Part shown: piece after piece, positions 4,216 through 62,998 of the stretch
Position numbering within the stretch: position 1 is the first letter of the stretch
Layout: each line of letters opens with the position of its first letter
DNA from: Clostridia bacterium
GTDB taxonomy: Bacteria; Bacillota; Clostridia; UBA1381; UMGS1253
Direction of reading: 5' to 3'
Assembly: GCA_045636325.1 (NCBI GenBank)
Contig: JAZTXH010000009.1
Location: forward strand, 59,479-123,478
Length of the DNA: 64,000 nucleotides
Notes under the pieces: model-generated
The model's database searches: none
What the model was told of the DNA's origin: nothing
What the model saw: only the letters and a program-made list of their open reading frames with translations
Translations under genes and position numbers: made by a program

Positions 4216-6237
<2,022 letters not shown>

Positions 6238-13601: not shown

Positions 13602-13641
13602 TTTAAATCTAAGCCGTTAAATCGGCAGCAAGGAGAGTATT

Positions 13642-35081: not shown

Positions 35082-35963
35082 TCAAGCAATAGACTTTTCA
35101 CCATCAAATAAAAGTATTCCGTAAGCTATGCCAAAGCTTCCGCCCTGCAAAATCCATTTTTTAAACTTTCTTTGAAGTGATATATTTTCAAGCAAATCAT
35201 TTGCATCTTTTCCCCACTGATTACCAAAAACTCTCCAGCCGTCACAAAATTCATCCTGCTCAATTACTTTAATAATATCAAACATCTCAGCAAACTGCGT
35301 TGTATTTGAATTCTTTCCAAACACCTTTTTATACTCGGGGTACAAAATCCATGAATAGCACATTACAGGCAAAACACCGTTCTTTTTAACAAAAGGCTTA
35401 TGTTTATTAAATTCGTATGCACGCTTTAAACAATCCAATACGCTTTTCCTTGTAAGTTGTCCTGATGAAGGTATATGGCACTCTAGAACCATATCCCCCT
35501 TTTTTATGGTTATATCACATTTTTTATAATCATCAAATTCAAATTCTTTATAATCATACTGAAGTCTTCCGTGGGCAAAACGAGTCATGTCAAACCATCC
35601 GCCAAACCATTGTGCTGCAAATGTGCCGCACACATTATGAACTTTCCTGCATTCTGTAAGCTTATATTTTAAATCATACATAGACTCGATATATTTTTCT
35701 TCACTAAGGTCGGATTTTTTGTATCTGTCCCATGTCTTTTGTGCACATATAAGTGAAAACAGCATCCACACTGTATATTCATGAATACCTTTTAAATCAA
35801 GTGCTCTCACTTTTTCAAATGCAGCATTATATTCAATCTCACCTGCAAAATATTTTCTTGCTATTTTTTCAACTTCAATGCCTAAAACAACCTCAGCATT
35901 AAGGATGCACGCAATATCATCCTCCGGGAAAGATATTTTTTTCATTAATTCTGTGATTTCCAT
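35082..35963 (-). CDS. conserved hypothetical protein (possibly acyltransferase-like; family not recognised with confidence)
   Basis: ~293-aa ORF. ATG start with a GGGTGA SD. No diagnostic motif identified. Confidence 0.5.
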   Translation of the reverse strand: MEITELMKKISFPEDDIACILNAEVVLGIEVEKIARKYFAGEIEYNAAFEKVRALDLKGIHEYTVWMLFSLICAQKTWDRYKKSDLSEEKYIESMYDLKYKLTECRKVHNVCGTFAAQWFGGWFDMTRFAHGRLQYDYKEFEFDDYKKCDITIKKGDMVLECHIPSSGQLTRKSVLDCLKRAYEFNKHKPFVKKNGVLPVMCYSWILYPEYKKVFGKNSNTTQFAEMFDIIKVIEQDEFCDGWRVFGNQWGKDANDLLENISLQRKFKKWILQGGSFGIAYGILLFDGEKSIA

Positions 35964-35982
35964 AATCTTCACCCGCCTATAT

Positions 35983-36020
35983 AAAAAGGATTAAAAGGGA
36001 CCGCAAATGCAGTCCCTTTT
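35983..36020 (-). terminator. terminator after carB::dapF
   Basis: AAAAGGGAC-10 nt-GTCCCTTTT, followed on the minus strand by AAUCCUUUUU. Confidence 0.65.
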
Positions 36021-36027: not shown

Positions 36028-39000
36028 TTAAAGCTCAACATATCCGTCAAACACTTTGACTGCCTCACCGGTCATAAATACATCCTCATCAGTATATTTT
36101 ATGTGAAGCTCACCGCCGCGAAGTTTAACCTTAATATCTTCGTTTTTGGGGCAATATCCATTTTCAACTGCCGCCACAACCGCCGCACATGCACCGGTTC
36201 CGCATGCCCATGTTTCGCCGTTGCCGCGCTCCCACACACGCATTCTTATGGATTTGTCATCCATAACACAAACAAACTCAACATTTACTCTTTCTGGAAA
36301 CAACTCGCAATTTTCAATTTCAGGACCAATTTTTTCAATGTCCATTTTTTCAATGTCATTACTGAATATAACGCAATGGGGATTTCCCATTGAAACGCAT
36401 GTAATATCGTAGTGTTTTCCTGCGATTTCTACACTGTGGCAAACAACTTTTTCTCCATCAATATTTACCGGAACATCTTCCGGCTTAACAGAAGCTTGAC
36501 CCATATCCACAGCTGCCATAAACACACTGTCATTCTTTAAAAACACCTTAAGTGTTTTTATGCCGCTCATTGTTTCTATCTTCATAACATCCTTTTTAAC
36601 AATGCCTTTATCATAAAGGAATTTTGCCACACAACGTATAGCATTGCCACCCATCTTGCCTTCGCTGCCGTCAACATTGAATATGCGCATTTTTGCATCT
36701 GCCGCATCGGAAGAATAAATAAGCACCACGCCGTCTGCACCCACAGAAAATCTTCTGTCACACAAACGAATAGCAAGTCCTTCAGGATTATCTATCTTTT
36801 GCTCCATACAGTTAATATAAATATAGTCATTACCACAGGTATGCATCTTTGTAAACTGAATCTTAAGCTTATCTTCACGCATACTGTTTATATCAACAAT
36901 CTCAGTTGTATGCTCCGAATAACGGCTCATCAGACTGTCTGCTATTGCATTGGCAGTATCAATAGAAGTAAGACACGGAATATTTCTTTCTACTGCCTTT
37001 CTTCTTATCTTAACACTGTCACGTGTGGGAATTCTTCCCTTTGTAGATGTTGAAATAACATAGCTTAGCTTACCACTTTCAATAAGCTCGAGAGTGTTAT
37101 TATCACCCTCATGAATTTTATTTACAACGCTTACTTCAAGACCTGCATCTCTTAAAACCTTTGCTGTTCCCCTTGTAGAGTAAAGCTCAAATCCCATATC
37201 AGAGAATTTCTTTGCTAGGTCAAATACTTCGCTTTTATCAGAATCACGAACAGTTATAAATACTCCGCCTGTTTTATTGAGTTTATATCCGCTTGCTGCA
37301 AGACCTTTATAAAGCGCCTCCTGAAGATTCTGAGCAACACCCAAAACCTCACCGGTAGATTTCATTTCAGGGCCTAACTGGTTATCCACATTAATAAGCT
37401 TTTCAAAACTGAATACAGGCACCTTAACCGCCACATAAGACGAAAGCTTATAAAGACCTGTTCCATAACCCATATCCTTAAGCTTTTCGCCAAGCATAGC
37501 ACGGGTAGCAAGGTCAACCATGGGAATTCCCGTTACCTTACTGATATAAGGAATTGTTCTTGATGCTCTGGGGTTAACCTCAATAACATAAAGCTCGTCA
37601 TCATATATAACATACTGAATGTTAACAAGCCCATAGGTTTTCATTTCGACCGCAAGGTTTTTAGTACATTCAATAATTCTGTCACGCATTTTGTCATCAA
37701 GATTAAATGCAGGATATACCGCAATTGAGTCTCCCGAGTGAACACCCGCGCGCTCAATATGCTCCATAATGCCGGGAATTAATATTTCTTCACCATCACA
37801 TATAGCGTCAACCTCAATTTCCGTACCCATAAGATATTTATCAATAAGCACCGGATTTTTAATGTTCTGTGCAAGAATAATTGACATATATTCTCTTACA
37901 TCTTCATCGGAAAATGCGATAATCATATTCTGTCCGCCAAGAACGTATGAAGGACGCAAAAGCACCGGATAACCAAGCTTATGAGCAACATCCAGCGCTT
38001 CACATGCCGCCATTACAGTGTAACCGCTGGGACGTTCAATATGAAGCTTTTCCAAAAGCGCATCAAAACGTTCTCTGTCTTCTGCCATATCAATACTGTC
38101 AGCAGATGTACCAAGAATGTTCATTCCTATTTCATCAAGATAATTTGTAAGTTTGATTGCAGTCTGACCGCCAAATGCTACAACAACTCCAAAAGGATTT
38201 TCTGTTTTTATAATATCTGTTACATCTTCTTTTGTAAGCGGCTCAAAATAGAGTCTATCTGATGTATCAAAGTCTGTTGAAACAGTCTCAGGGTTATTAT
38301 TTACTATAACAACATCATATCCAAGCTCTTTAAGTGCCCATACACAATGAACAGATGCATAGTCAAATTCTATACCCTGACCAATTCTTATAGGACCTGA
38401 ACCAAATACTATAATTGTCTTCTTTTTATCTTTTTTATTTTTCAAAAATTCTTCTGCTTCGTTTTCATCATCAAATGTTGAGTAGAAATACGGTGTCTGT
38501 GCTTCAAACTCAGCCGCACAAGTGTCAACCATTTTAAACACTGCGCTTCTCTTGTTTATAATCTTCTGACCTGAAAGTCTTTCAATAACACTATCCATAT
38601 ATCCAAGCTTCTTTGCTTCAATATAAAGCTCGTCTGTAAGCGTTTCACTTTCAAGACGCTTCTGCATATTAGAAAGATTCAAAAGCTTGTATAAGAACCA
38701 GTTATCAATTTTTGTTATATCATTTATTTCTTCACAGCTTACCCCACGATACAGCGCTTCATATACCATGAACAAACGAAGGTCATTACAATCATAAAGT
38801 GCTTCATGAAGTTCTTCATCTGTCTTTGATTTTGCACCCTTATAGCTTAAAGTATCAAGTGAAATTTCAGCGCCGCGAACAGCCTTCATCATTGCAGCTT
38901 CAAAATTATCAGCAATACTCATAACCTCACCGGTAGCTTTCATCTGTGTTCCAAGAGCACGCTTTGCATATACAAACTTATCAAATGGCCATTTGGGGAA

Positions 39001-40068
39001 TTTAACAACAACATAATCGATAGAAGGCTCAAAACAAGCATATGTTGTTCCCGTAACGGCATTTTTAATTTCGCTTAATTCATAACCGATAGCAATTTTT
39101 GCTGCAACCTTCGCAATCGGGTAACCTGTCGCCTTTGAAGCCAACGCTGATGAACGTGAAACTCTGGGGTTAACCTCAATAACTGCATATTCAAAGCTGT
39201 CAGGCTTTAGTGCAAACTGACAGTTACATCCGCCTTCAATTCCAAGCTCGTTAACAATTGCCAAAGCTGCACTTCTTAACATCTGATATTCTTTATCAGA
39301 AAGTGTAACTGCCGGTGCAACAACTATTGAGTCCCCTGTGTGCACACCAACAGGGTCAAAGTTTTCCATGCTGCAGACAGTAATTGCATTTCCCTTACTG
39401 TCACGGATAACTTCAAACTCTATTTCTTTCCAGCCAGAAATACATTTTTCAACCAATACCTGATGTATGGGCGAAAGGTCAAGCCCATTCTGGCAGATTT
39501 CTTTCATTTCTTCATCGTTATTTACAATACCGCCGCCAGTACCTCCAAGGGTAAATGCAGGTCTTATAATAACGGGATATTCAATCTCATGAGCAAAAGC
39601 CATACCGCTTTCCAAATCATTTACAACAGTTGACGGGATACACGGCTGATTAATTTTATCCATCATATCCTTAAACATCTGTCGGTCTTCAGCGCGGTCA
39701 ATTGTTTCAACTCGTGCACCCAAAAGTTTTACACCATGTTCTTCTAAAAAGCCTTCTTTTGCGAGTTTCATAGACATTGTAAGACCTGTCTGACCGCCAA
39801 GAGTTGACAAAAGGCTGTCAGGCTTCTCTTTTTCAATAATTCTTTTAAGTGTTGTAATATCAAGGGATTCAATATATATTTTATCCGCCATTTTATTATC
39901 TGTCATAATTGTTGCAGGATTTGAGTTTACCAAAACAACCTCAAGCCCATCTTCTTTTAAAGCACGACATGCCTGAGTTCCCGCATAGTCAAATTCAGCT
40001 GCCTGACCAATGACAATAGGTCCAGAGCCAATAACCATTACTTTCTTTATATCCTTATTAAGTGGCAT
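36028..40068 (-). CDS. carB: carbamoyl-phosphate synthase large subunit fused in frame to a DapF-like (diaminopimelate epimerase fold) domain
   Basis: 1346 aa. Residues 1 to ~1062 are canonical CarB (two ATP-grasp halves plus an MGS-like domain). The last ~284 aa carry DapF blocks FTKMHTCGNDYI, NVDGSEGKMGGNAIRC, SMGNPH and ERGNGETWACGTGACA. Confidence 0.9.
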   Translation of the reverse strand: MPLNKDIKKVMVIGSGPIVIGQAAEFDYAGTQACRALKEDGLEVVLVNSNPATIMTDNKMADKIYIESLDITTLKRIIEKEKPDSLLSTLGGQTGLTMSMKLAKEGFLEEHGVKLLGARVETIDRAEDRQMFKDMMDKINQPCIPSTVVNDLESGMAFAHEIEYPVIIRPAFTLGGTGGGIVNNDEEMKEICQNGLDLSPIHQVLVEKCISGWKEIEFEVIRDSKGNAITVCSMENFDPVGVHTGDSIVVAPAVTLSDKEYQMLRSAALAIVNELGIEGGCNCQFALKPDSFEYAVIEVNPRVSRSSALASKATGYPIAKVAAKIAIGYELSEIKNAVTGTTYACFEPSIDYVVVKFPKWPFDKFVYAKRALGTQMKATGEVMSIADNFEAAMMKAVRGAEISLDTLSYKGAKSKTDEELHEALYDCNDLRLFMVYEALYRGVSCEEINDITKIDNWFLYKLLNLSNMQKRLESETLTDELYIEAKKLGYMDSVIERLSGQKIINKRSAVFKMVDTCAAEFEAQTPYFYSTFDDENEAEEFLKNKKDKKKTIIVFGSGPIRIGQGIEFDYASVHCVWALKELGYDVVIVNNNPETVSTDFDTSDRLYFEPLTKEDVTDIIKTENPFGVVVAFGGQTAIKLTNYLDEIGMNILGTSADSIDMAEDRERFDALLEKLHIERPSGYTVMAACEALDVAHKLGYPVLLRPSYVLGGQNMIIAFSDEDVREYMSIILAQNIKNPVLIDKYLMGTEIEVDAICDGEEILIPGIMEHIERAGVHSGDSIAVYPAFNLDDKMRDRIIECTKNLAVEMKTYGLVNIQYVIYDDELYVIEVNPRASRTIPYISKVTGIPMVDLATRAMLGEKLKDMGYGTGLYKLSSYVAVKVPVFSFEKLINVDNQLGPEMKSTGEVLGVAQNLQEALYKGLAASGYKLNKTGGVFITVRDSDKSEVFDLAKKFSDMGFELYSTRGTAKVLRDAGLEVSVVNKIHEGDNNTLELIESGKLSYVISTSTKGRIPTRDSVKIRRKAVERNIPCLTSIDTANAIADSLMSRYSEHTTEIVDINSMREDKLKIQFTKMHTCGNDYIYINCMEQKIDNPEGLAIRLCDRRFSVGADGVVLIYSSDAADAKMRIFNVDGSEGKMGGNAIRCVAKFLYDKGIVKKDVMKIETMSGIKTLKVFLKNDSVFMAAVDMGQASVKPEDVPVNIDGEKVVCHSVEIAGKHYDITCVSMGNPHCVIFSNDIEKMDIEKIGPEIENCELFPERVNVEFVCVMDDKSIRMRVWERGNGETWACGTGACAAVVAAVENGYCPKNEDIKVKLRGGELHIKYTDEDVFMTGEAVKVFDGYVEL

Positions 40069-41153
40069 TATTCTGCTCCTCCTTCTACTATCATTTTAAC
40101 AAATTTATCAAATAAAAATTCTGTATCCAACGGACCTGCCGCACCTTCCGGATGGAATTCAACAGAAAATGCAGGTGCGTTAGTTAAGCTTATACCCTCA
40201 CAAGCGCCATCGTTTGCATTTTCAAAGCTTACTTTCACATTTTCAGGAAAACTTTCCGGAACAAGAGCATATCCGTGGCTCTGACATGTTATATATATTC
40301 TGCCTGTTTTAACATCCTTTGCAGGCTGATTTTCACCTCTGTGACCATACTTTAATTTCTCACTTTTTGCCCCCTGAGAAAGGCCTAAAAGCTGATGGCC
40401 CATACTTATACCGAACATAGGAATCTTTTCATCGCAAAGTTTTTTAACCTCTGCTATAATACTTTTGTTTTCGCCCGGGTCTCCGGGTCCTCCTGATAAA
40501 ACAACGCCGTCAGCCTTATATGACATAATAGCTTTCGCTGTTGTATCCGCCGGCACTCTTATAACAGTTACATCGCGTTTTAAAAGTTGACGGATAACTG
40601 CCTCTTTTGTGCCAAGGTCTAATAAAACTATCTTGCGTTTTTCCTTTTCAGCTCTGTAAATCTTTACTTCTTTACAAGTAACTTCGCTGACAGGATTTAC
40701 TATCTTATGGCTTTTTATTTCTTCAATCTCTTTTTCATTTATCTTGTCGGAATATGCAATTCTCCCGTTCATAACACCATATTCACGAACGATTTTAGTA
40801 AGTCGCCTCGTGTCTATATCGTAAAGTCCCGGAATTTTATTTTCCTTCAAGTATGAATCAATGTCACCTTCACATCTGAAATTAGATGGATGCTCGCACC
40901 AACTTTTAACAATATATGCACCAATATACGGTTTATCGCTTTCAAAATCCGAACTTATAACCCCGTAATTTCCAAGGCTTGGAAATGTCTGAGTGACAAT
41001 CTGACCGTAAAGGCTTGGGTCCGTAATTGTTTCAAGATATCCCGACATGGAAGTAGTAAAAACAACTTCACCAGTTACCTCTTTTTCATAACCAAAGCTT
41101 TTACCTTTGAAAACAGTTCCATTTTCAAGAATAAGATAAGCTTCTTTTGCCAT
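40068..41153 (-). CDS. carA: carbamoyl-phosphate synthase small subunit with Ser at the glutaminase nucleophile position
   Basis: 361 aa. The class I GATase block reads FGISMGHQLL where the family has GICLGHQ. The His/Glu of the triad is retained (EFHPE). TAATG overlap with carB. Confidence 0.9.
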   Translation of the reverse strand: MAKEAYLILENGTVFKGKSFGYEKEVTGEVVFTTSMSGYLETITDPSLYGQIVTQTFPSLGNYGVISSDFESDKPYIGAYIVKSWCEHPSNFRCEGDIDSYLKENKIPGLYDIDTRRLTKIVREYGVMNGRIAYSDKINEKEIEEIKSHKIVNPVSEVTCKEVKIYRAEKEKRKIVLLDLGTKEAVIRQLLKRDVTVIRVPADTTAKAIMSYKADGVVLSGGPGDPGENKSIIAEVKKLCDEKIPMFGISMGHQLLGLSQGAKSEKLKYGHRGENQPAKDVKTGRIYITCQSHGYALVPESFPENVKVSFENANDGACEGISLTNAPAFSVEFHPEGAAGPLDTEFLFDKFVKMIVEGGAE

Positions 41154-41327: not shown

Positions 41328-41356
41328 ATTATACACTATTTCTAAAAAAATGTAAA
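41328..41356 (-). promoter_or_regulatory. sigma-A promoter of carA-carB::dapF
   Basis: Minus strand reads TTTACA (41351-41356), a 17-nt spacer, then TATAAT (41328-41333). Confidence 0.6.
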
Positions 41357-42168: not shown

Positions 42169-42192
42169 GTAAAATGTAAAATTGTTAAACGC

Positions 42193-42209
42193 TGTGATTG
42201 GTGTTCACA
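42193..42209. promoter_or_regulatory. TnrA/GlnR-type box in the glnN leader (also the stem of a terminator-like hairpin)
   Basis: TGTGA-TTGGTGT-TCACA is a perfect match to TGTNA-N7-TNACA. The extended 9-bp stem at 42189-42213 is followed by a T7 run ending at 42219, 25 nt before the ATG. Confidence 0.6.
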
Positions 42210-42244
42210 GTGTTTTTTTAATCATTTGAAAGGGGCATTGATAA

Positions 42245-44341
42245 ATGAAAAATATTCCCGATTTATTTGGCTCAATGGTTTTTAACACTCACGTTATGCG
42301 TGAGCGTCTGCCTAAATCAACATATGATGAGCTTCTCAAAGCGATAGATGAAGGTCTTCCTTTAGAGCCGGAAGTTGCAAACGTTGTTGCAAATGCAATG
42401 AAAGACTGGGCTATAGAAAAAGGTGTAACTCATTATACTCACTGGTTTCAGCCTATGACTGGTATTACTGCAGAAAAGCACGACAGCTTTATATCACCCT
42501 ATGGTGAAGATTCCGTTATAATGGAATTTTCCGGAAAAGAATTAATTAAAGGCGAGCCTGATGCATCAAGCTTTCCTTCCGGTGGTCTTCGTGCAACATT
42601 TGAAGCAAGAGGCTACACTGCATGGGACCCCACATCCTTTGCTTTTATAAAAGATAACACCCTTTGTATTCCCACTGCTTTTTGCTCATACACCGGCGAA
42701 GCACTTGACAAAAAGACTCCTCTTCTGCGTTCAATAGAGGTTATTGATAAGCAGGCAATGAGAATTCTGCGTCTTTTTGGAAATACAACCGCAAAAAAAG
42801 TTATTACAACCGTTGGTCCTGAGCAGGAATATTTCCTTATAGATAAAAAGCTTTATGATGAAAGAAAAGACCTTATTTATACCGGCAGAACTCTTTTCGG
42901 TGCTCCTGCACCAAAAGGTCAGCAGCTTGATGACCATTATTTCGGAACAATAAAACCTAGAGTTGCCGCGTATATGAAAGAGCTTGATGAGGAGCTCTGG
43001 AAGCTTGGTGTTCTGGCAAAAACAAAGCATAACGAGGCAGCTCCTGCACAGCATGAGCTTGCACCCATATTTGCTACAACAAATATTGCAACCGATCACA
43101 ATCAGCTTACAATGGAAATAATGAAAAGAGTTGCCACAAAACATGGTCTTGTATGTCTTCTTCATGAAAAACCGTTTCAGAGCGTAACCGGCAGTGGCAA
43201 GCACAATAACTGGTCACTTTCCACCGATACTGGCGAAAACCTTTTAAAACCCACAAGTAAGCCCCATGAAAACAAGCAATTTTTACTTTTCCTTTGCGCT
43301 GTTATCAAAGCAGTTTATGAACATCAAGATTTACTCAGAATTTCAATTGCCAGCGCAGGGAATGATCATCGTCTTGGTGCTGACGAGGCTCCGCCCGCTA
43401 TAGTTTCTATGTTTATAGGCGATGATTTGGAAGAAGTTTTGAATGCAATTGCAAACGATAAAGAATACATAAAGAACGCAACAAAATATATTGACAGCGG
43501 CACACATGCATTGCCAGATTTGAAAAAGGACACAACAGATCGTAACCGCACATCTCCATTTGCATTCACCGGAAACAAATTTGAGTTTCGTATGCTTGGC
43601 TCTTCTTTCTCTGTTGCCGCTCCCAATACAATTTTAAACACCATAGTTGCAAGTGTATTGGACGAATTTGCAACAGAGCTTGAATCAGCAAATGATTTTT
43701 CATCTGCGGTCGACGCCCTCATCAAGAAAACTGCAAAAAAATACAAAGATATTATTATTTTCAACGGCAACAACTATTCTGATGAATGGGTAAAAGAAGC
43801 TGAAAGACGCGGCCTTTACAACTTAAAAACTACTCCTGATGCAATTCCTCTTCTTACAAGCAAAAAGAATGTTGATTTGTTCACAAAATACGGTGTTTAT
43901 TCTGAAATTGAACTTCATTCAAGATGTGACATACTTTTGGAAAACTACTCAAAAATACTAAACATCGAAGCAAACACGATGCTTGAAATGGCCAAGAAAG
44001 ATATTCTGCCTGCAGTTATCAGCTTTACAAAAGAGCTTGCTGAAACATTAAATGCAAAAAAGACTCTTTCTTTAGATGTTTCATGCTTTGCAGAAGAAGA
44101 ACTTTTAAAGAGAGTTTCTCTTCTTTCTGAAAATCTCTACCGCAGAATCCAGACTCTTGAAAAAGCGGTTTCGGGCGCAAAAAATGTATCCGATACAGAA
44201 AAACTTGCCGTATATTATAAAGACAAAGTTCTTTCGGCAATGAATTACCTTCGCGAAAGCGCAGATACTTTAGAAACCATCGTTGGTGAAAAATACTGGC
44301 CATTCCCCTCTTACGGAAAGCTTTTGTTCTCAGTCAACTGA
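42245..44341 (+). CDS. glnN: glutamine synthetase type III
   Basis: 698 aa. GSIII-type N-terminus (FGSMVFN…[12 protein letters not shown]) and length. Confidence 0.9.
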
Positions 44342-46790: not shown

Positions 46791-47633
46791 TCATAAAGAC
46801 TCTGTCTGCCCTTTTATGTAATCAATAAGGAGCTCATGAACATTTACGTCTGTCAGCTCATAAAGCATTCTTGCTCCCACAACATCCTCAATTTCATTAA
46901 GCTTCATTTCATCACCATCAAATATAAAATCTATACCTGCATATGTAAAATCAAAGTAGCCTATAACCTTTTCAATAAGTTTTCTTTCATTTGGTGATAT
47001 ATTGTAAAGCTCTGCTTTGCCACCAAGTGAAAAATTACTTCGAAAGTCAATATCCGAGCTTCTTAGTATCCCTGCAAGGATTTTGTTTCCTAATACATAA
47101 ACCCTTAAATCTCTGCCTGTTGTGCCTGCAATTTTCTGCACAAGAAAACAATCTGTCCCGTAACTTTTTACTGCCGCTTCAAGCTCATATTTATTGTTTG
47201 CAATGAATACGCCCTCTCCGCCGTGGCCGTCAGCCGGCTTTACAACACAAGGATATCTTATATCTTCTGCATCATATGAAAAAAAACGTCTGTCAAAAAA
47301 AAGCGTGTCCATCATAGGAATACCTTTATCAGCAAGATAAAAATGAGTTTTCCTTTTATCGTTGCATACATTAGAAATAAACGAATTATTAAAAACTCTT
47401 ACTCCCGCTTTTTCAAAAAATTCACTTAAAAACGGGAAGATACTTCTGTTAATAACAAACTGCGGAAATCCCCCGTTTACTTTTAATCCATCTTTATTTA
47501 TTCCAAACACAATATCCTGTGCATATTTAAGTTTTAAATCAATTCCACACGTGTGCGCATATTCAATAAGAGTGTGAATAAACCAGCGGTTTTTCTCCGC
47601 TTCAACTTTTCCGTATATAATCCATCCGGTCAT
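46791..47633 (-). CDS. divergent RimK-type ATP-grasp ligase (paralogue 2)
   Basis: 280 aa. YPCVVKPADGHGGEGV ATP-grasp block. The C-terminal metal-ligand block reads DFIF…NEIED instead of D…E-x-N. Confidence 0.7.
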   Translation of the reverse strand: MTGWIIYGKVEAEKNRWFIHTLIEYAHTCGIDLKLKYAQDIVFGINKDGLKVNGGFPQFVINRSIFPFLSEFFEKAGVRVFNNSFISNVCNDKRKTHFYLADKGIPMMDTLFFDRRFFSYDAEDIRYPCVVKPADGHGGEGVFIANNKYELEAAVKSYGTDCFLVQKIAGTTGRDLRVYVLGNKILAGILRSSDIDFRSNFSLGGKAELYNISPNERKLIEKVIGYFDFTYAGIDFIFDGDEMKLNEIEDVVGARMLYELTDVNVHELLIDYIKGQTESL

Positions 47634-47637
47634 ATTA

Positions 47638-48498
47638 TCATAGCCTGTCTTTAATATATTTTATAATCTCTTCACTTAAATCAATACCAGTGCAATGAAG
47701 AGTGCTTTTAAAATGAGGATTTGAATTCACTTCGCATATAATGCTTTCACCGTTTTTACCAAAAAGCACATCCACTCCTGCAAATTCAAGGCCAACAGCC
47801 TCGCATGCCGCAATCGCAATCTGTTTTTGCTCAACCGTTGCTTCTTCAGCTTTCATTTTGCCACCGTTTGAAATATTAGAGCGAAAATCGCCGCTTGTAT
47901 TATAGCGCAGCATTGATGCCACTGCCCTGCCGCCAACAACATTAACTCTTATATCTCTCCCTTTGCTTTCTTCTATAAATTCCTGCATTATAAACTCTTT
48001 TGCGCCAATTTTTTCTGCAATTTCTTTTGCTTCTTCAAAATTATTTGCAAGATAAACCTGCTGACCGAAAGAGCCGTAGCTTTCTTTAATTACCATAGGA
48101 TATCCCAAATCATCCCCGGCTTTTTTTAAAAAACCAAGATTATTATATCCAAAGGTCTCAAAGGTTTTAGGTGCAATATATGTTTTTGGCACTTTTATAC
48201 CCTTTTTCGCAAGGTATATTGCGCTAAGACTTTTACTGTCAGATATTTCAATCGCCCTTGCACTGTTAAACACCCGCACTCCCATATCCTCAAGAAGCAT
48301 GGCAAGCTTTACATCCTTGTCCCAGAAAAGCACAAAATCAGGTAAATCAACTTTTTCGCCGACCGCAAAAAACACATCACATGTTTTTTTAAGTTCAAGA
48401 GTAATTCCATACCTTTTTGATGCATCTAAGAGATATGCATATATCTCATTAAACTTTTTAATTTCTATAAAACTGTTAACAATAAGCCATCCGGTCAT
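47638..48498 (-). CDS. RimK-type ATP-grasp alpha-L-glutamate-ligase-like protein (paralogue 1)
   Basis: 286 aa. YPMVIKESYGSFGQQV, RSNISNGG and GVDVLF…ICEVNSNP motifs. Confidence 0.75.
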   Translation of the reverse strand: MTGWLIVNSFIEIKKFNEIYAYLLDASKRYGITLELKKTCDVFFAVGEKVDLPDFVLFWDKDVKLAMLLEDMGVRVFNSARAIEISDSKSLSAIYLAKKGIKVPKTYIAPKTFETFGYNNLGFLKKAGDDLGYPMVIKESYGSFGQQVYLANNFEEAKEIAEKIGAKEFIMQEFIEESKGRDIRVNVVGGRAVASMLRYNTSGDFRSNISNGGKMKAEEATVEQKQIAIAACEAVGLEFAGVDVLFGKNGESIICEVNSNPHFKSTLHCTGIDLSEEIIKYIKDRL

Positions 48499-48540
48499 AA
48501 GTCATTCCCCTGTTTTTTATACGATTAAAATTCTCAAATA

Positions 48541-48569
48541 ATTTTATCACATTACACAATTTAAGTCAA
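48541..48569 (-). promoter_or_regulatory. sigma-A promoter of the ATP-grasp pair
   Basis: Minus strand reads TTGACT (48564-48569), a 17-nt spacer, then TGaTAAAAT (-10 at 48541-48546). Confidence 0.65.
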
Positions 48570-48581
48570 TAAAAAGCATTG

Positions 48582-50039
48582 TCAAATTTCATCAAAACAA
48601 ACACTTATTTCCTTTTTCATTCCATGTGAGCCAAACACCTGCCATCTACCCTCACCAAACCTTTGAAATATAGCTTTTCTTTCATCGCGGCAAAGCGCAG
48701 AATCAGTATCAACCGAATTCATAAGCTTCGGTGCATACTGATTGTATTTCTTCTGTTCAGGCGTCATATCCTTTAAATTAATATAAATATCTCCTGTAAA
48801 AGATATTCGGTTTTTATAATCTATCAAAACGGTTTCACCTTGCAGATGACCACCGCTGCACTCATATACTTCAAAGCAAAATTCTCCGAAATTAAAAAAG
48901 CCGATTTGCCACATTAATGCGTTTTCTTGTTTATCTTCCCATAAAAATTGCAACTTTTCAGGATTCGGTGGCTTATATTCCGTAAGTGCCTTGCATATTT
49001 TCACATAAGGCTTATGATATCTGTTTCGCTCTCTAAATCCGTTTTTCCCTTCGTATTCATTTTTTAAACATTCACCGGTTTTATAGCTCACAAAAATTTC
49101 ATCAAACATATAAGCAAGCCCACAATGGTCCACATCAGCATGGGTTAAAACAATTTGCTTTTTTATCTGCTCAAATCCCTGCACAAGCTCATTATAAATC
49201 TTCGTCATTTCCTCTTTATAATACGTATATCCGCAATCTATAAAAAGGTATTTATCTTCGCTTTTTATAATAGCAGTATTACTGCCGCAAGGCGGCTCAA
49301 TTAAAATTATTTCGCTTTTTTCGCCTGCTGCGTGATGTGTTATACGGGGCTTGAAAGCATCTTTTCTGCTATTTGCAAGCATGCTTGCAAACTTACTTAT
49401 ATTATCAAATGTTTTATAAGGCAGTCGCCCCTGCTCATCTAAAATCTGCATAGCAAGATTTGAATTTATCAAAATTTCTTGCTTTGCCTCAGGATTAATT
49501 TGCCCCGCTTTAATAAGACTGTCCGTAAATGAATTATAAAAAATACTGTTATCAAAAATCTTTTCGGCATGGTTATAGTCTATAATATTTACGGGGCAAA
49601 TCTGCTTGGCTTTCTTAATAAAATTCAAAAATACAGACTTATCTTCCGTTAAAACTCCTACTTTAAATGCCTGTGTTTTTTTATCTGCTGCCTGATAACT
49701 TATATATGAGATATTAAAGTTATAATTATAAATAAGCCTTGCAATCTCTTTAGCGCTGCCGGGCCTGTTTTCAAGTAAAAATTCTATTAAAAAAACCTCT
49801 GCTGTTTTATTATTTTTTTGAAAATATCCGTTTTTTGAAAGTATTTCATCCGCTTTTTCAAGCTTATCTTGCTTTCCCTCTACATCTATAAACAAGGTAT
49901 TGGTATCTACTGCTTTATTATAGCTTACCCTTGTTATATTCACTCCAAGTTTTGCAAAACATTCACTCGCCTTAAAAAAGGCACTTGCATCATCAGACAT
50001 ATTTGCAATGTACGTTTTTTTCAAGCCAACCGCTCCCAA
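48582..50039 (-). CDS. tandem ACT-like domains fused to an MBL-fold metallo-hydrolase
   Basis: 485 aa. Two ~70-aa beta-alpha-beta-beta-alpha-beta-like N-terminal modules, then the MBL motif LTHADVDHCG. Confidence 0.6.
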   Translation of the reverse strand: MGAVGLKKTYIANMSDDASAFFKASECFAKLGVNITRVSYNKAVDTNTLFIDVEGKQDKLEKADEILSKNGYFQKNNKTAEVFLIEFLLENRPGSAKEIARLIYNYNFNISYISYQAADKKTQAFKVGVLTEDKSVFLNFIKKAKQICPVNIIDYNHAEKIFDNSIFYNSFTDSLIKAGQINPEAKQEILINSNLAMQILDEQGRLPYKTFDNISKFASMLANSRKDAFKPRITHHAAGEKSEIILIEPPCGSNTAIIKSEDKYLFIDCGYTYYKEEMTKIYNELVQGFEQIKKQIVLTHADVDHCGLAYMFDEIFVSYKTGECLKNEYEGKNGFRERNRYHKPYVKICKALTEYKPPNPEKLQFLWEDKQENALMWQIGFFNFGEFCFEVYECSGGHLQGETVLIDYKNRISFTGDIYINLKDMTPEQKKYNQYAPKLMNSVDTDSALCRDERKAIFQRFGEGRWQVFGSHGMKKEISVCFDEI

Positions 50040-54504: not shown

Positions 54505-55173
54505 TTATTTTCTTTTTACTATATTGTCCATACTTTTAACAATACAGCCTGCTGCAAAAACGCCCCTGAGTGAATTAAGAGGGTAAACAGTTGTGTTCTT
54601 TCCTATCACTGTTCCGGGATTAAGCACACATGAGCATCCAACATCTGCCCCGTCTGCCAATACACCGCCAATTTTTCTTATTCCGGTTTTATAATCAATA
54701 TCCCCATGAATAACAACCGGCTTGCCGTCAGCCTTAAGATTAGAACAAATAGACCCTGCACCCATATGAGCGTGATTGCCCAATATAGAATCTCCTATAT
54801 AATTATAATGCGGAACTTGCACTTTGTCAAGTAAAATACAATTTTTTAACTCCGATGAATTTCCGATAACACAATTTTCACCGGTTATGACACTGCCTCT
54901 TATGAATGCGCCCGGCCTCACTTCACAGTAATGACCTATAATCGTGGGTCCTTCAATTACTGCATTTGGATATATTTTTACATTTTTTCCGACCCATACG
55001 CCTTTTTCTATTTCGAAAAAACCGTCCAAACCATTTTCAATAAGATTTTCAATATACCCTTTTATCTTTTCTAACATCTGCCAGGGATATTCGCTTTTTT
55101 CAAAAAGCTCTTTTAAATAGGGTGTTCTACATTCAAAAAGCTCGTTTGTTTTAACCTGCTTATTCAACACCAT
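54505..55173 (-). CDS. left-handed beta-helix (hexapeptide) acyltransferase resembling the GlmU C-terminal domain
   Basis: ~222 aa. Hexapeptide repeats with HYNYIGDSILGNHAHMGAGSICSN, similar to GlmU LbH. No nucleotidyltransferase domain. Confidence 0.6.
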   Translation of the reverse strand: MVLNKQVKTNELFECRTPYLKELFEKSEYPWQMLEKIKGYIENLIENGLDGFFEIEKGVWVGKNVKIYPNAVIEGPTIIGHYCEVRPGAFIRGSVITGENCVIGNSSELKNCILLDKVQVPHYNYIGDSILGNHAHMGAGSICSNLKADGKPVVIHGDIDYKTGIRKIGGVLADGADVGCSCVLNPGTVIGKNTTVYPLNSLRGVFAAGCIVKSMDNIVKRK

Positions 55174-56782
55174 GTCCCCTTTCAATAATTTTGTCTGAAA
55201 CAATCTGTGCATATTCTATGCATTTATCTTTACTTTCACACTCAATCATAACTCTTATAACTGGCTCTGTTCCGCTTTGACGCAAAAGCACTCTTCCCTT
55301 TCCTCCAATAAGTTTTTCCACATAAGAAAGCTCTTCAATCACTGCATCATCCGTCATAACTGATTTCTTATCCTTAACGCGAATATTTTTCATATACTGC
55401 GGATACAATTTAACTGGCTCAGCAAGCTCTGACAAAGAACGTTTTCTATCACAAACTTCTTCAGTAAGCATTATAGCTGTAAGTATACCATCACCGGTGG
55501 TCGCATATTTTTTCAAAATTATATGCCCCGATTGTTCACCGCCAAGACAATAATCATTTTGTTGCATGCTCTCATACACAAATCTATCGCCAACATTTGT
55601 TTGTACACATTTTATGCCCTCTTCTTCAAGGCTGGAAAGCAGTCCGCTGTTTGTCATAACTGTTGCAACTATAGTATTGTGGTTAAGCACACCTCTGTTT
55701 TTTAAACGCTTACCTAAAATATAGAGCATTAAATCACCATCTACTACATTTCCGTTTTCATCAACTGCTATACATCTGTCAGCATCTCCATCGAAGGCAA
55801 AACCCATATCAAGGTGCTGTTCACGAACAAGCTTACAAAGATTTTCAATATGAGTTGAGCCACACCCTTCATTTACATTAAGTCCGTTAGGTTCGGCTCC
55901 AATTACAACAGTTTGTGCACCAAGCGCTCCAAATACCGCTTTTGCAATCATCCACGAAGCGCCGTTAGCACAGTCCAATCCAATTTTAAGCGATTTATAT
56001 GAATGTGACGCAATAGAAATCAAATAACCAAGATATCGGTTTCTGCCTGATGCATAGTCTACAATGCAACCAATTTTCTCTCTGCCTGCCAAAGGTAGGT
56101 CATCAGATACAACACCAAATGCCTTTAAATCACCATCAATATAGCTTTCTATAAGTGAAGTTGTAGAATCTTCAAGTTTTTCACCATAGCGGTTTATAAC
56201 CTTTATACCATTATCATAATATGGATTATGAGATGCAGTAATCATTATACCGCAATCAAACTCATCCTGACGGGTAACATAAGAAACACTTGGTGTTGTG
56301 GTAACATGCAGCATATATGCATCCGCACCTGATGCTGTAATTCCTGCAACAATGGAATATTCAAGCATATAACTTGACCTTCTTGTGTCTTTTCCTATAA
56401 CAATTCTTGGTCTGTATCCAGCCTTTGTGTTACCTGAAAGCGCAGAAGAATAATACCACCCCAGAAAACGACCAACCTTATATGCCTGCATAGATGTAAG
56501 CGTAAGGTTTGCCTCACCGCGAAAACCGTCAGTTCCAAAATACTTATTTGAGCCTAATTTCTTCTCAATCTTATGATTTATAGTAATTTTATCCTGTAAT
56601 AATTCGTCTGTTGAAATATCAAACAACTCACAAAGCTGTAAAACCTTATCAATCTGCGGAATTGCCTGATCCATTTCCCATTTTGAAACAGACTGTCTGG
56701 AAACTGAAATCCTTTCTGCCAATTGCTCCTGAGAAATATTAGCGGCGGTTCTAAGTTTTAAAATTTTTTCACCTATAGTCAT
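55160..56782 (-). CDS. glmM: XRE-type HTH domain fused to phosphoglucosamine mutase
   Basis: 540 aa. Residues 1 to ~65 are HTH_3 (LRTAANISQEQLAERISVSRQSVSKWE). The remainder is intact GlmM (TASHNP, FDGDADR, GGEQSGH, RQSGTEP). Confidence 0.85.
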   Translation of the reverse strand: MTIGEKILKLRTAANISQEQLAERISVSRQSVSKWEMDQAIPQIDKVLQLCELFDISTDELLQDKITINHKIEKKLGSNKYFGTDGFRGEANLTLTSMQAYKVGRFLGWYYSSALSGNTKAGYRPRIVIGKDTRRSSYMLEYSIVAGITASGADAYMLHVTTTPSVSYVTRQDEFDCGIMITASHNPYYDNGIKVINRYGEKLEDSTTSLIESYIDGDLKAFGVVSDDLPLAGREKIGCIVDYASGRNRYLGYLISIASHSYKSLKIGLDCANGASWMIAKAVFGALGAQTVVIGAEPNGLNVNEGCGSTHIENLCKLVREQHLDMGFAFDGDADRCIAVDENGNVVDGDLMLYILGKRLKNRGVLNHNTIVATVMTNSGLLSSLEEEGIKCVQTNVGDRFVYESMQQNDYCLGGEQSGHIILKKYATTGDGILTAIMLTEEVCDRKRSLSELAEPVKLYPQYMKNIRVKDKKSVMTDDAVIEELSYVEKLIGGKGRVLLRQSGTEPVIRVMIECESKDKCIEYAQIVSDKIIERGHGVE

Positions 56783-57135: not shown

Positions 57136-57897
57136 TCATACTTTTACAAGTTCTACCTTGCTTTCTTTTAAAACATTTTCCCAACTTTCGGAAATCGTCG
57201 CATCAGTTATAAGACATTCTATATCTTCAAACCTTGCAAGTTTAGCAAATCCAACTCTGCCAATCTTACTTTTGTCACATAAATAATACGCACTTTTGGA
57301 ATTTTTAAGCATACATTTTTTTATGCCGCACTCCTGCTCATTACTTTCAAGGATTCCCGTTTCTTCCATAATGCCTTTACTGGAAAAAAACATTTTATCA
57401 GCAAAATAATTTTTAGAAATATTATCTTCAGCCAATGTTCCTACAAGGCTCATATTGTGACTAGCAATTCCGCCAACAGCAATAAGCTTAATGTTTTCAC
57501 TACCGGCAAGCTCATTCACAACACGAATGGAATTTGTAATGACAGTAATATTTTTTATATTATTTATTTCCTTTGCCATATAAAAAGTAGTAGTAGACGC
57601 ATCAAGAAAAACTGTGTCACCAGGCAGTATGTATCCTGCTGCCACTGCAGCAAGCTTTTCCTTTGCATCAACATTCGTACGCTTTCTTTTTTCAAGCGAA
57701 AGCTCATATGCAGTTGCATCAATTGGAACAGCTCCGCCATGTGTTCGCATTAAACACTCTTGTTTTTCAAGTTTTTCAAGATCACGTCTTATTGTCTCTT
57801 CTGTAACTCCAAGCTCACTGCTTAATCGGCTTACCCATACTGCACCGTTATCAGCAAGCTTTTGAAGTATAATCTTCTGACGTTCAAGTGCAAACAT
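57136..57897 (-). CDS. DeoR/GlpR family transcriptional regulator
   Basis: N-terminal HTH_DeoR (ERQKIILQKL…VTEETIRRDLEKLE) plus a DeoR C-terminal sensor domain. Starts 11 nt after the pduL stop. Confidence 0.85.
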   Translation of the reverse strand: MFALERQKIILQKLADNGAVWVSRLSSELGVTEETIRRDLEKLEKQECLMRTHGGAVPIDATAYELSLEKRKRTNVDAKEKLAAVAAGYILPGDTVFLDASTTTFYMAKEINNIKNITVITNSIRVVNELAGSENIKLIAVGGIASHNMSLVGTLAEDNISKNYFADKMFFSSKGIMEETGILESNEQECGIKKCMLKNSKSAYYLCDKSKIGRVGFAKLARFEDIECLITDATISESWENVLKESKVELVKV

Positions 57898-57908
57898 ATA
57901 TCTGTCTC

Positions 57909-58583
57909 CTACTTCTGAATTATTCTTACCTTGTTTCCATTCTTGAGGCCGGCTGAGTTTGCATCATCAGTATCAATATGCATCTCAACATTAAAATCAT
58001 CACGAACTCGAACCTGAACACCATAAAATTTTGTAGTTTTTAAGTTTTCGCCTTCTATCATAACGTCAACATAATCATTATCCTTAATGGCGTGCTTTTC
58101 GGCATATTCAGGAGTTAAGTGTATATGGCGGTTGGCAATGATAACGCCTTCCTTTAAATATACGCTACCCTTAGGTCCTACAATAACCAGTTTTTCCGAA
58201 CCCTTAATTTCACCTGAAGGTCTCACCGGAGGGCTAACCTTTAAAACAAACGTATCTGTTCTTGAAATTTCTACTTGAGTATTTTTTCTTACCGGACCCA
58301 AAACCCTTACCTTTTCTATACTTTTCAGTGATGGACCAACCAAAGTAACAAACTCATTTGAAGCATACTCTCTGCCCATAAGAGTTTTAAACTTTGTAAG
58401 CTCATATCCTTTACCGAAAAGAGTGTCTAAATCTTCACGGCTAAGGTGAATGTGTCTTTGTGACACACCTACCTTAATCTCTCCATCATCAGATTCCTTA
58501 TCACTTGCCTGCGGTGCACCGCTTTTATTTATATCAGCAATAACTTCTGCTACTATCTTTTCAATCTGTGCTGCATCGTACAT
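57909..58583 (-). CDS. pduL: phosphate propanoyltransferase (PduL-type phosphotransacylase) with an N-terminal encapsulation peptide
   Basis: Duplicated PduL motifs (GVSQRHIHLS, IIANRHIHLT). An amphipathic N-terminal helix AAQIEKIVAEVIADI. Confidence 0.85.
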   Translation of the reverse strand: MYDAAQIEKIVAEVIADINKSGAPQASDKESDDGEIKVGVSQRHIHLSREDLDTLFGKGYELTKFKTLMGREYASNEFVTLVGPSLKSIEKVRVLGPVRKNTQVEISRTDTFVLKVSPPVRPSGEIKGSEKLVIVGPKGSVYLKEGVIIANRHIHLTPEYAEKHAIKDNDYVDVMIEGENLKTTKFYGVQVRVRDDFNVEMHIDTDDANSAGLKNGNKVRIIQK

Positions 58584-58600
58584 TTATTTCACCTCACAAA

Positions 58601-59248: not shown

Positions 59249-59265
59249 TTATAACACTCTCCGTA

Positions 59266-60693: not shown

Positions 60694-60748
60694 ATCACAT
60701 TGCTCCTGTCTTTAAAAATATCTATCACAAAAAACTTAATTTTCTACT

Positions 60749-61297: not shown

Positions 61298-61314
61298 ATT
61301 ATTCTCTCCTCCGC

Positions 61315-62646: not shown

Positions 62647-62671
62647 TTACCCCATTTGTCTGATTCTATTA

Positions 62672-62938: not shown

Positions 62939-62966
62939 CCGTTTCCTTATAAAGTAAGCCTATATT

Positions 62967-62998
62967 ATGGCAGACGGATTTAAAAGTCCGCCTGCCAT
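62967..62998 (-). other. intercistronic GC-rich hairpin between the BMC-H and BMC-P genes
   Basis: ATGGCAGACGGA-8 nt-TCCGCCTGCCAT: 12-bp arms with one mismatch and no U-run on the coding (minus) strand. Confidence 0.5.

What the first reader, a model, noticed from the sequence alone, without database searches (positions are those of the whole stretch)
36028..40068. CarB fused in frame to a complete DapF-like domain
The ORF is 1346 aa, roughly 275-285 aa longer than a canonical CarB. After the MGS-like allosteric domain (…TSIDTANAIADSLMSRYSEHTTEIVDINS) the frame runs on without a stop. It continues into MREDKLKIQFTKMHTCGNDYIYIN … SMGNPH … ERGNGETWACGTGACAAVVAA, which are all the diaminopimelate-epimerase signature blocks. 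I see no Shine-Dalgarno sequence before the internal Met (36880-36882), so the module appears to be made only as part of CarB. I am not aware of a described CPS with this architecture. Because it is appended to the allosteric domain, it could act as a ligand-sensing regulatory add-on. Alternatively it could couple the Arg/pyrimidine branch to the Lys/peptidoglycan/dipicolinate branch.
Basis: partly seen in the sequence, partly recalled or inferred. Interest (0 to 1): 0.8.

Follow-up and report, generated by a model that had tools for sequence, protein, structure and literature searches.

The report
CarB fused to single-cysteine DapF module
The carbamoyl-phosphate synthetase large subunit really does carry a diaminopimelate-epimerase domain at its end, as in hundreds of related gut Clostridia, but here that domain lacks one of its two catalytic cysteines, so it is probably not an ordinary epimerase.

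Summary
The 1346-aa ORF (36028-40068, minus strand) is real. It encodes a full CarB (aa 1-~1062) joined without any added linker to a full-length DapF-fold module (aa ~1070-1346). It is not an assembly error. At least 269 protein clusters or loci from Oscillospirales carry the same single ORF, including isolates (Clostridium leptum DSM 753, Oscillibacter valericigenes, Pusillibacter faecalis, Ruminococcus sp. FC2018, Neglectibacter caecimuris). Databases already label it a "multifunctional fusion protein"; I found no paper describing it.

The catalytic Cys73 of DapF is Gly here (aa 1140, codon GGT), while Cys217 and all substrate-binding residues are intact.

- Among 269 fused proteins, 152 have Gly, Ala or Ser at the Cys73 site and none has lost Cys217.
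- The change arose at least 13 times.
- It was never seen in 48 stand-alone DapFs (p = 6e-7).
- The binding pocket stays 97-100% conserved in the Cys-less modules.
- For the half where dS is measurable (aa 1191-1346), dN/dS is about 0.08.

My best reading is a selected, ligand-binding module that is impaired as an epimerase and is tethered to the CarB allosteric domain. Residual or altered catalysis is a serious rival. I could not test whether this genome has another epimerase.

The parts
40068..41153 (-). carA (glutamine amidotransferase small subunit of CPS), 361 aa. Its stop codon overlaps the carB start (TAATG).
   Evidence: Pfam CPSase_sm_chain + GATase; sequence of the overlap
41328..41356 (-). 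Promoter-like site TTTACA-17-TATAAT upstream of carA. It is a candidate operon promoter, based on a consensus match only.
   Evidence: 11 of 12 matches; the number of such sites in the region is close to chance expectation
40076..40085 (-). Shine-Dalgarno sequence GAAGGAGGAG for carB::dapF
   Evidence: sequence read directly
36028..40068 (-). Single ORF of 1346 aa: CarB fused to a DapF-like module
36883..40068 (-). CarB part (aa 1-1062): two ATP-grasp halves, oligomerisation domain and MGS-like allosteric domain (aa 948-1034 = 36967-37227), plus the natural CarB C-terminal tail
   Evidence: NF003671 1497 bits, TIGR01369 1454 bits; Pfam domains; alignment to E. coli CarB up to residue 1066/1073
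36862..36921 (-). Junction (aa 1050-1069, ...YSEHTTEIVDINSMREDKLK). The CarB tail runs straight into DapF strand 1 with no added linker. The junction is conserved across the family. The AF2 model has low confidence here.
   Evidence: Met1063 (36880-36882) is Leu in some homologues.
36031..36861 (-). DapF-fold module (aa 1070-1346)
   Evidence: TIGR00652 full length; 2otn E = 2e-73; Foldseek target TM-score 0.85-0.92 to DapF structures
36649..36651 (-). Codon GGT = Gly1140, at the position of catalytic Cys73 of DapF
   Evidence: the closest homologue P0002 has GGC at this codon
36202..36204 (-). Codon for Cys1289, equivalent to catalytic Cys217 of DapF; retained
   Evidence: 269 of 269 fused proteins keep it
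35993..36020 (-). Intrinsic-terminator-like hairpin (12 pairs) with a T-rich tail, 8 nt after the stop codon; it ends the carA-carB::dapF operon

Best explanation
carA and carB::dapF form a two-gene operon. The product is a working CPS large subunit whose C-terminal tail continues directly into a DapF-fold domain. This fusion was inherited within the Oscillospirales.

In this organism the DapF module has lost the Cys73 general base (now Gly) but keeps Cys217 and the whole diaminopimelate-binding pocket. It therefore cannot run the canonical two-thiol epimerisation.

I think it most likely persists as a selected, ligand-binding module that is catalytically impaired. In effect it is a pseudoenzyme that still binds DAP or a close analogue. 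Because it sits on the allosteric domain of CarB, it could influence CPS regulation, stability or oligomerisation. meso-DAP would then be supplied by another enzyme, such as a stand-alone DapF, a PLP-dependent DapF2 or meso-DAP dehydrogenase.

Shown:
- the architecture and its conservation;
- the loss of Cys73;
- retention of the pocket;
- purifying selection;
- restriction of the loss to fused copies.

Inferred:
- ligand binding;
- loss of epimerase activity;
- any effect on CPS;
- the existence of a substitute epimerase.
For: (1) Cys73 is Gly, shown by alignment to solved DapFs, while Cys217 and N11, N64, G74, N75, N157, H159, N190, E208, R209, G218 and T219 are intact.

(2) The change is recurrent and specific. 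In 269 fused proteins, 152 are non-Cys at the Cys73 site (131 Ala, 15 Gly, 6 Ser) and none is non-Cys at the Cys217 site. On a tree of 149 fused proteins there are at least 13 state changes and 15 separate non-Cys clades.

(3) The change occurs only in fusions. In species-representative genomes, 14 of 34 fused loci against 0 of 48 stand-alone DapFs lack the Cys (p = 6e-7). The Cys-less sequences of high-scoring 50% representatives that could be traced are fragments of CarB fusions or carry a CarB allosteric-domain tail.

(4) The module is under selection rather than decaying. Pocket residues are 97-100% conserved in 32 Cys-less modules in which only 17% of DapF columns are invariant. In a comparison of the window with P0002, the whole module has pN = 0.18 and pS = 0.75. 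dN/dS is about 0.08 for aa 1191-1346, the only part where dS is measurable. The entire Oscillibacter/Dysosmobacter/Pusillibacter clade carries Ala at the site.

(5) A substitute epimerase is plausible. L004 (Neglectibacter isolate) and L011 (Acutalibacter MAG) carry a stand-alone dapF 1.8 kb downstream of the fusion. In L011 the fused copy has lost six pocket or catalytic residues yet stays in frame. DapF2 exists, and an E. coli dapF deletion strain grows.

(6) There is a precedent for a non-catalytic DapF role: E. coli DapF activates RppH by binding it.

(7) There is no separate expression signal for the module.
Against: - No binding or activity data exist.
- The absolute retention of Cys217 hints that thiol chemistry is still needed, which favours residual or altered catalysis over pure sensing.
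- Only small residues (Gly, Ala, Ser) replace Cys73, which could leave room for a water molecule to act as the second acid/base.
- AF2 gives no confident CarB-DapF interface. For aa 930-1346 the pTM is 0.66 and the junction pLDDT is 49-69. The larger construct was poorly modelled.
- I could not show that this genome has another route to meso-DAP. There is none in the 64-kb window.
- Close relatives such as P0003 (83% identical) keep Cys73, so the loss here is fairly recent.
- The module evolves faster here than usual: 70% identity between the window and P0002, against about 84% for Cys-keeping pairs at the same CarB divergence. This also fits partial relaxation of constraint.
Confidence: 0.45

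Rival explanations
1. The protein is a true bifunctional enzyme. The module is still the cell's diaminopimelate epimerase and works with Cys217 plus water or another group in place of Cys73. Activity may be lower but sufficient.
For: - The DAP pocket and Cys217 are intact in all 152 Cys-less modules.
- Replacements are restricted to small residues.
- Selection is strongly purifying.
- Dysosmobacter, whose fused protein has Ala at the site, has meso-DAP in its wall.
- No second dapF lies within 5 kb of the 12 full-length Cys-less fused loci from the genome scan, nor within the 64-kb window.
Against: - The two-thiol mechanism is the defining chemistry of DapF. From memory of Koo and Blanchard's mutant work (not re-read here), Cys-to-Ala mutants of H. 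influenzae DapF were reported inactive as epimerases.
- If one thiol sufficed, Cys-less forms should also appear among stand-alone DapFs, but 0 of 48 do.
- Evolution of the module is accelerated in the window's lineage.
Confidence: 0.3
2. The module is an evolutionary relic. It lost its function when another enzyme took over and survives only because it is translated in frame with an essential CarB, or because it is needed passively for folding or solubility.
For: - L011 shows that a badly degenerate fused copy can persist in frame next to a stand-alone dapF.
- The DapF part of the window protein diverges about twice as fast as in Cys-keeping pairs.
- AF2 predicts no fixed interface.
Against: - For the C-terminal half of the module, where dS is measurable, dN/dS is about 0.08, far below 1.
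- The pocket is 97-100% conserved across at least 13 independent losses and across a family-level clade.
- The asymmetry of 152 losses at Cys73 against none at Cys217 is not expected from neutral decay.
- A simple stop codon would remove a useless 280-aa tail, yet all 240 fused homologues retrieved with full-length queries are 1342-1355 aa long.
Confidence: 0.15
3. The module is a single-base enzyme with a new reaction, such as elimination or isomerisation on a DAP-like or other amino-acid substrate. This would be analogous to Cys/Thr hydroxyproline dehydratases or PhzF within the same fold superfamily.
For: - Cys217 is strictly retained while Cys73 is lost.
- The fold superfamily contains one-base enzymes (PhzF, trans-3-hydroxy-L-proline dehydratase, methylitaconate isomerase) among the structural neighbours.
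Against: - The pocket residues are those of DAP binding and are unchanged, so there is no sign of a re-tooled site.
- No candidate substrate or pathway neighbours were found in the operon.
Confidence: 0.08
4. The fusion is an artefact: adjacent carB and dapF genes merged by an assembly or sequencing error.
For: none found
Against: - The same uninterrupted ORF, 1342-1355 aa long, occurs in 240 protein clusters from independent assemblies, including complete isolate genomes.
- The junction is conserved at the amino-acid level.
- The Gly codon is also present in the nearest relative (GGC).
Confidence: 0.02

Closest known systems
Carbamoyl-phosphate synthetase large subunit CarB (E. coli CarB, PDB 1bxr/1jdb; NCBIfam NF003671)
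   Same: It has the full domain set, equivalog-level scores, an adjacent and translationally coupled carA, and an MGS-like allosteric domain. Several nucleotide-site residues look conserved in the alignment; the residue identities come from my memory of the E. coli structure.
   Different: It carries an extra DapF-fold domain of about 280 aa directly after the natural C-terminal tail. The CPS fusions reviewed in PMC6022934 involve glutaminase and ATCase/DHOase (CAD), not an epimerase.
Diaminopimelate epimerase DapF (B. anthracis 2otn, H. influenzae 1bwz/2gke, E. coli 4ijz; TIGR00652)
   Same: It has the same two-domain fold (target TM-score 0.85-0.92), 42% identity in the structural alignment to 2otn, all substrate-binding residues and Cys217.
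   Different: The catalytic Cys73 is replaced by Gly. The module is not a free protein and has no translation start of its own. The engineered C73S mutant (PDB 2q9h) is the closest studied analogue.
CarB-DapF 'multifunctional fusion proteins' of Oscillospirales (C. leptum DSM 753, O. valericigenes Sjm18-20, P. faecalis, Ruminococcus sp. FC2018)
   Same: They share the architecture, length and junction, at 73-87% identity (the Oscillibacter clade about 63% in CarB). The window protein is a member of this family.
   Different: The family splits into members that keep Cys73 (for example C. leptum and most close relatives) and members without it (the window with Gly; the Oscillibacter, Dysosmobacter and Pusillibacter clade with Ala). 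None has been characterised biochemically as far as the searchable literature shows.
E. coli DapF as a protein-binding activator of RppH (PMC6061791)
   Same: It is a precedent for a DapF fold acting on another enzyme through contact rather than through its own catalysis.
   Different: In E. coli the complex is non-covalent, the partner is unrelated, and DapF remains a fully active epimerase.
One-base members of the DapF/proline-racemase fold (trans-3-hydroxy-L-proline dehydratase, PhzF)
   Same: One of the two catalytic acid/base positions is naturally substituted.
   Different: Those enzymes have re-modelled substrate pockets. Here the DAP pocket is unchanged.

Membership tests
CarB (CPS large subunit) | Two homologous ATP-grasp synthetase halves, each with a pre-ATP-grasp domain | tested here: met
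   CPSase_L_D1 and CPSase_L_D2 each match twice; NF003671 1497 bits against a cutoff of 599, aa 1-1050
CarB (CPS large subunit) | Oligomerisation domain and C-terminal MGS-like allosteric domain | tested here: met
   CPSase_L_D3 aa 423-498 and MGS aa 948-1034; alignment to E. coli CarB 945-1066
CarB (CPS large subunit) | Partner CarA encoded alongside | tested here: met
   carA at 40068-41153 with a TAATG overlap
CarB (CPS large subunit) | Carbamoyl-phosphate synthesis activity | not testable with these tools
   inferred from equivalog-level scores only
DapF (diaminopimelate epimerase, EC 5.1.1.7) | Two-domain DapF fold over the full length | tested here: met
   TIGR00652 290.8 bits against a cutoff of 114.65, profile 1-268/270; AF2 pLDDT of the module mostly 86-97; Foldseek target TM-score 0.85-0.92
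DapF (diaminopimelate epimerase, EC 5.1.1.7) | Substrate-binding residues (N11, N64, G74, N75, N157, N190, E208, R209, G218, S/T219; H. influenzae/E. coli numbering, recalled from UniProt and structure papers) | tested here: met
   all present in the window protein
DapF (diaminopimelate epimerase, EC 5.1.1.7) | Catalytic thiol Cys217 | tested here: met
   Cys1289 in TWACGTGACA
DapF (diaminopimelate epimerase, EC 5.1.1.7) | Catalytic thiol Cys73 (the Cys in the signature N-x-D-G-S-x4-C-G-N) | tested here: not met
   Gly1140: NVDGSEGKMGGN against 2otn ...SEGKSCGN. For this reason the module is filed as DapF-like, not as a DapF enzyme.
DapF (diaminopimelate epimerase, EC 5.1.1.7) | LL-DAP to meso-DAP epimerase activity | not testable with these tools
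   requires an enzyme assay or complementation
Oscillospirales CarB-DapF fusion family | Single ORF of about 1345 aa with the conserved junction ...TELVDINxMRxEK.K..F.KM.. | tested here: met
Pseudoenzyme (catalytically dead homologue kept by selection) | Loss of an essential catalytic residue | tested here: met
   Cys73 is Gly
Pseudoenzyme (catalytically dead homologue kept by selection) | Purifying selection and conservation after the loss | tested here: met
   whole module pN = 0.18 and pS = 0.75, with dN/dS about 0.08 for aa 1191-1346; pocket 97-100% conserved in Cys-less modules
Pseudoenzyme (catalytically dead homologue kept by selection) | Demonstrated absence of the ancestral activity | not testable with these tools
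   inference only

The most novel reading that the evidence does not exclude
The single-thiol DapF module is a new kind of allosteric or ligand-sensing domain for carbamoyl-phosphate synthetase. It would bind diaminopimelate (or a related cell-wall or lysine precursor) without turning it over, and so tie arginine and pyrimidine precursor supply to cell-wall or lysine status. Alternatively, it performs a new one-base reaction. Under either reading, the recurrent and asymmetric loss of Cys73, seen only in fused copies, marks a functional switch and not decay.
Probability: 0.3. Interest if true: 0.8.

Novelty: new variant of a known kind. Interest (0 to 1): 0.55.

Why it matters
CPS is a textbook allosteric enzyme and DapF a textbook two-base racemase and antibiotic target. 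A large group of gut and rumen Clostridia carries the two as one polypeptide. This group includes Oscillibacter and Dysosmobacter, which are studied as health-associated commensals. In more than half of the fused proteins I sampled, the epimerase half has specifically lost one of its two catalytic thiols while keeping its binding pocket.

If the module is inactive, automated annotation and pathway tools that credit these genomes with DapF are wrong. The real source of meso-DAP in these organisms would then need to be found. If the module senses DAP, it would be a previously unknown regulatory input to CPS. If it is still active, it would challenge the strict two-thiol model of DapF. Cultured strains with complete genomes make all three outcomes testable.

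Tried and rejected
- **Assembly error.** Rejected, because 240 independent full-length homologues exist and the junction is conserved.
- **Internal start for a separate DapF.** There is no Shine-Dalgarno sequence. Met1063 belongs to the CarB tail and is Leu in some homologues. Internal promoter-like hits are only at chance level.
- **Second dapF in the window.** tblastn found none.
- **Finding the genome of origin, or a stand-alone dapF or ddh in it.**
  - The exact protein is in NCBI without a name, and no contig look-up was possible.
  - Co-occurrence therefore stayed untested, except for L004 and L011.
- **A migrated catalytic Cys.** No position gains a Cys consistently in the Cys-less forms. 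The Cys before N11 is variable in them.
- **Structure of the CarB-DapF interface.** The 794-aa construct was poorly modelled (pTM 0.54). The 417-aa construct gave two confident domains but an uncertain hinge. No conclusion on packing is possible.
- **RNA elements near the operon.** There are no Rfam or tRNA hits in the window.
- **Literature.** Six searches found no description of the fusion.
- **DapF-domain NJ tree.** It was too weakly resolved to decide whether the fusion arose once. Fused copies mostly cluster together, with four stand-alone copies nested among them.


Full report
**Observation.** The minus-strand ORF 36028-40068 encodes 1346 aa. Pfam and NCBIfam place a complete CarB on aa 1-1050 (NF003671, 1497 bits, cutoff 599). 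It includes both ATP-grasp halves, the oligomerisation domain and the MGS-like allosteric domain (aa 948-1034). A full-length DapF match covers aa 1070-1344 (TIGR00652, 290.8 bits, cutoff 114.65, profile 1-268 of 270). carA lies immediately upstream at 40068-41153, and its TAA stop overlaps the carB ATG. carB has a strong GAAGGAGGAG ribosome-binding site. A 12-pair terminator-like hairpin follows the stop codon at 36020-35993.

**The junction.** Alignment to E. coli CarB runs to '...EIVDIN', which corresponds to residue 1066 of 1073. Residue 2 of a solved DapF aligns eight residues later. The fusion therefore joins the natural end of CarB to the natural start of DapF with no added linker. It is Leu in several homologues and has no Shine-Dalgarno sequence. 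The module can only be made as part of CarB.

**Not an artefact, and not new to databases.**
- A search of 5.8 billion proteins returned 120 listed clusters at 73-100% identity. All are 1345-1355 aa long and all carry PF01678.
- A second search, seeded from a distant fused relative, returned 120 more.
- The named members include [Clostridium] leptum DSM 753, Oscillibacter valericigenes, Pusillibacter faecalis (UniRef 'Multifunctional fusion protein') and Dysosmobacter. The O. valericigenes protein is named 'carbamoyl-phosphate synthase large chain/diaminopimelate epimerase' and lies on the complete chromosome AP012044.1.
They include Ruminococcus sp. FC2018 and Neglectibacter caecimuris.
- Six literature searches found no paper that describes or studies the fusion. 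A 2018 review of carbamoyl-phosphate enzymes lists glutaminase and CAD-type fusions but no epimerase.

DapF works with two catalytic cysteines, Cys73 and Cys217. This is established knowledge and is restated in PMC6061791. In the window protein the first signature block reads NVDGSEGKMGGNAIRC. Alignment to B. anthracis DapF (2otn, E = 2e-73) puts Gly1140 opposite the catalytic Cys (...SEGKSCGNGLRC). Cys1289 in TWACGTGACA matches Cys217. The codon is GGT here and GGC in the nearest relative P0002, so this is not a sequencing error. All residues known to bind the substrate are present. The predicted fold is a normal DapF fold, with target TM-scores of 0.85-0.92 to solved DapFs.

**Pattern across the family.**
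- Among the first 120 homologues, 100 keep Cys73 and 20 have Gly, Ser or Ala. Cys217 is invariant.
- I pooled 269 fused proteins or loci. Of these, 152 lack Cys73 (131 Ala, 15 Gly, 6 Ser) and none lacks Cys217.
- On a neighbour-joining tree of the CarB part of 149 fused proteins, parsimony needs at least 13 changes. The non-Cys state falls into 15 separate clades.
- All 120 clusters retrieved from the Oscillibacter/Dysosmobacter/Pusillibacter clade lack Cys73; all but one carry Ala.
- In the genome scan, 14 of 34 fused loci but 0 of 48 stand-alone DapFs lack the Cys (Fisher p = 6e-7).
- Among the 150 best 50%-identity representatives of all DapF relatives, eight lack Cys73. Six of these were examined. 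Three are fragments of CarB fusions, for example one that starts MDINALR. One carries a CarB allosteric-domain tail behind an OTCase N-terminal domain. One (P0226) has an Fe-hydrogenase-like N-terminus with no CarB signature. One is a stand-alone protein with Ser.

**Selection.**
- Pocket residues are 97-100% conserved in the 32 Cys-less modules of the tree set, although only 17% of DapF columns are invariant there.
- Between the window and P0002, the CarB part has dN/dS of about 0.04. The DapF part has dN = 0.21 against 0.063 for CarB. Its dS is saturated; dN/dS is about 0.08 for the half where it is computable.
- The module is therefore under clear purifying selection. It evolves faster than in Cys-keeping lineages: at 90-95% CarB identity, the DapF identity averages 84% for Cys/Cys pairs and 80% for non-Cys pairs. 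It is 70% for the window/P0002 pair.

**Evidence for a substitute epimerase.** In L004 (Neglectibacter caecimuris, an isolate) and L011 (an Acutalibacter MAG), a CarB-DapF fusion is followed 1.8 kb downstream by a stand-alone dapF. In L011 the fused copy has lost C73, G74, N75, H159, E208 and C217 but is still in frame, while the stand-alone copy is canonical. This shows what real decay looks like, and it shows that the fused domain is kept even then. A recent preprint confirms a non-homologous epimerase, DapF2, and reports that an E. coli dapF deletion strain grows. The Dysosmobacter cell wall contains meso-DAP, so organisms with the Ala form still obtain meso-DAP by some route. No second dapF exists in the 64-kb window. 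I could not examine the rest of this genome.

**Interpretation.**
- An assembly artefact is excluded.
- A neutral relic is unlikely, given the conserved pocket, the low dN/dS and the asymmetry of 152 losses at one cysteine against none at the other.
- Two readings remain. In the first, the module is ligand-binding but impaired as an epimerase, and it acts on or with CPS. This is the usual signature of a pseudoenzyme: binding residues kept and one catalytic residue lost. It would also explain why the Cys-less state is seen only where the domain is welded to another enzyme. I rate this reading 0.45.
- In the second, the module is still catalytic with one thiol plus water, or it performs a different one-base reaction. 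I rate these 0.30 and 0.08. The absolute retention of Cys217 and the restriction to small replacement residues keep this reading alive.
- The AF2 models show two confidently folded domains but no confident interface. Structure prediction neither supports nor refutes regulatory coupling.

**Comparison and novelty.** The CarB part is an ordinary member of CarB. The appended module has the DapF fold and pocket but fails one defining feature of the enzyme, so I file it as DapF-like. The protein belongs to an existing but unstudied fusion family that is already visible in databases. What appears new is the natural single-cysteine state, its recurrence, its asymmetry and its restriction to fused copies. 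I therefore rate this a new variant of a known kind, with moderate interest.

**Organism.** The source was not identified. The window has 37% G+C. The nearest relatives are unnamed MAG proteins, or ones labelled Oscillospiraceae or Ruminococcaceae. The presence of spoVFA and spoVFB suggests a spore-former.

Noticed in passing
L004:4-3198 and 4986-5843; L011:2557-4314 and 4986-5846: Neglectibacter caecimuris and an Acutalibacter MAG have both a CarB-DapF fusion and a stand-alone dapF about 1.8 kb downstream, followed by pyrG. In L011 the fused copy has lost six catalytic or pocket residues but remains in frame.
   Followed up: partly
P0290-P0409; L082:10001-14038 = AP012044.1: All 120 listed clusters of the Oscillibacter/Dysosmobacter/Pusillibacter clade lack Cys73, and all but one carry Ala at the site. 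The O. valericigenes protein is named as a bifunctional CarB/DapF and lies on the complete chromosome AP012044.1. The Dysosmobacter wall is reported to contain meso-DAP.
   Followed up: partly
P0132, P0230, P0270 (50% representatives): Other DapF fusions exist: aminotransferase class I/II + DapF (687 aa), GNAT + DapF (427 aa), and an OTCase N-terminal domain joined to a CarB allosteric-domain tail plus a Cys-less DapF. The last may be a chimera or a rearrangement.
   Followed up: partly
window 6656-8635 (-): One 659-aa ORF combines LytB/IspH with four S1 RNA-binding domains.
   Followed up: no
window 55160-56782 (-): A 540-aa ORF has an N-terminal HTH_3 domain (aa 8-61) followed by all four phosphoglucomutase/phosphomannomutase domains. 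This is an unusual pairing, or the ORF start may have been called too far upstream.
   Followed up: no
window 46791-50039 (-): Two tandem RimK-family ATP-grasp ligase genes (280 and 286 aa) lie downstream of a 485-aa ORF that has only a weak ACT-domain hit. Their function is unknown.
   Followed up: no
window 57136-63434 (-): This is a microcompartment-type locus with a DeoR regulator, PduL-type phosphotransacylase, an aldehyde dehydrogenase and a Nuo51/RnfC-like flavoprotein. The small neighbouring ORFs look like shell proteins by eye only.
   Followed up: partly
window 12744-14220 (+): The dipicolinate synthase subunits A and B (spoVFA/spoVFB) are present, so the organism is probably a spore-former that draws on the early DAP pathway.
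   Followed up: partly
window 42187-42215 (+), before 42245-44341: A hairpin with a T run lies just upstream of the type III glutamine synthetase gene, which is transcribed divergently from carA. It could be a leader or attenuator. There is no Rfam match.
   Followed up: no
window 35082-35972 (-): The gene directly downstream of the operon encodes a NAT_N + GNAT_C protein (296 aa) with no NCBIfam match at E <= 1e-8. In the closest relative (L001), CarD follows the fusion directly.
   Followed up: no
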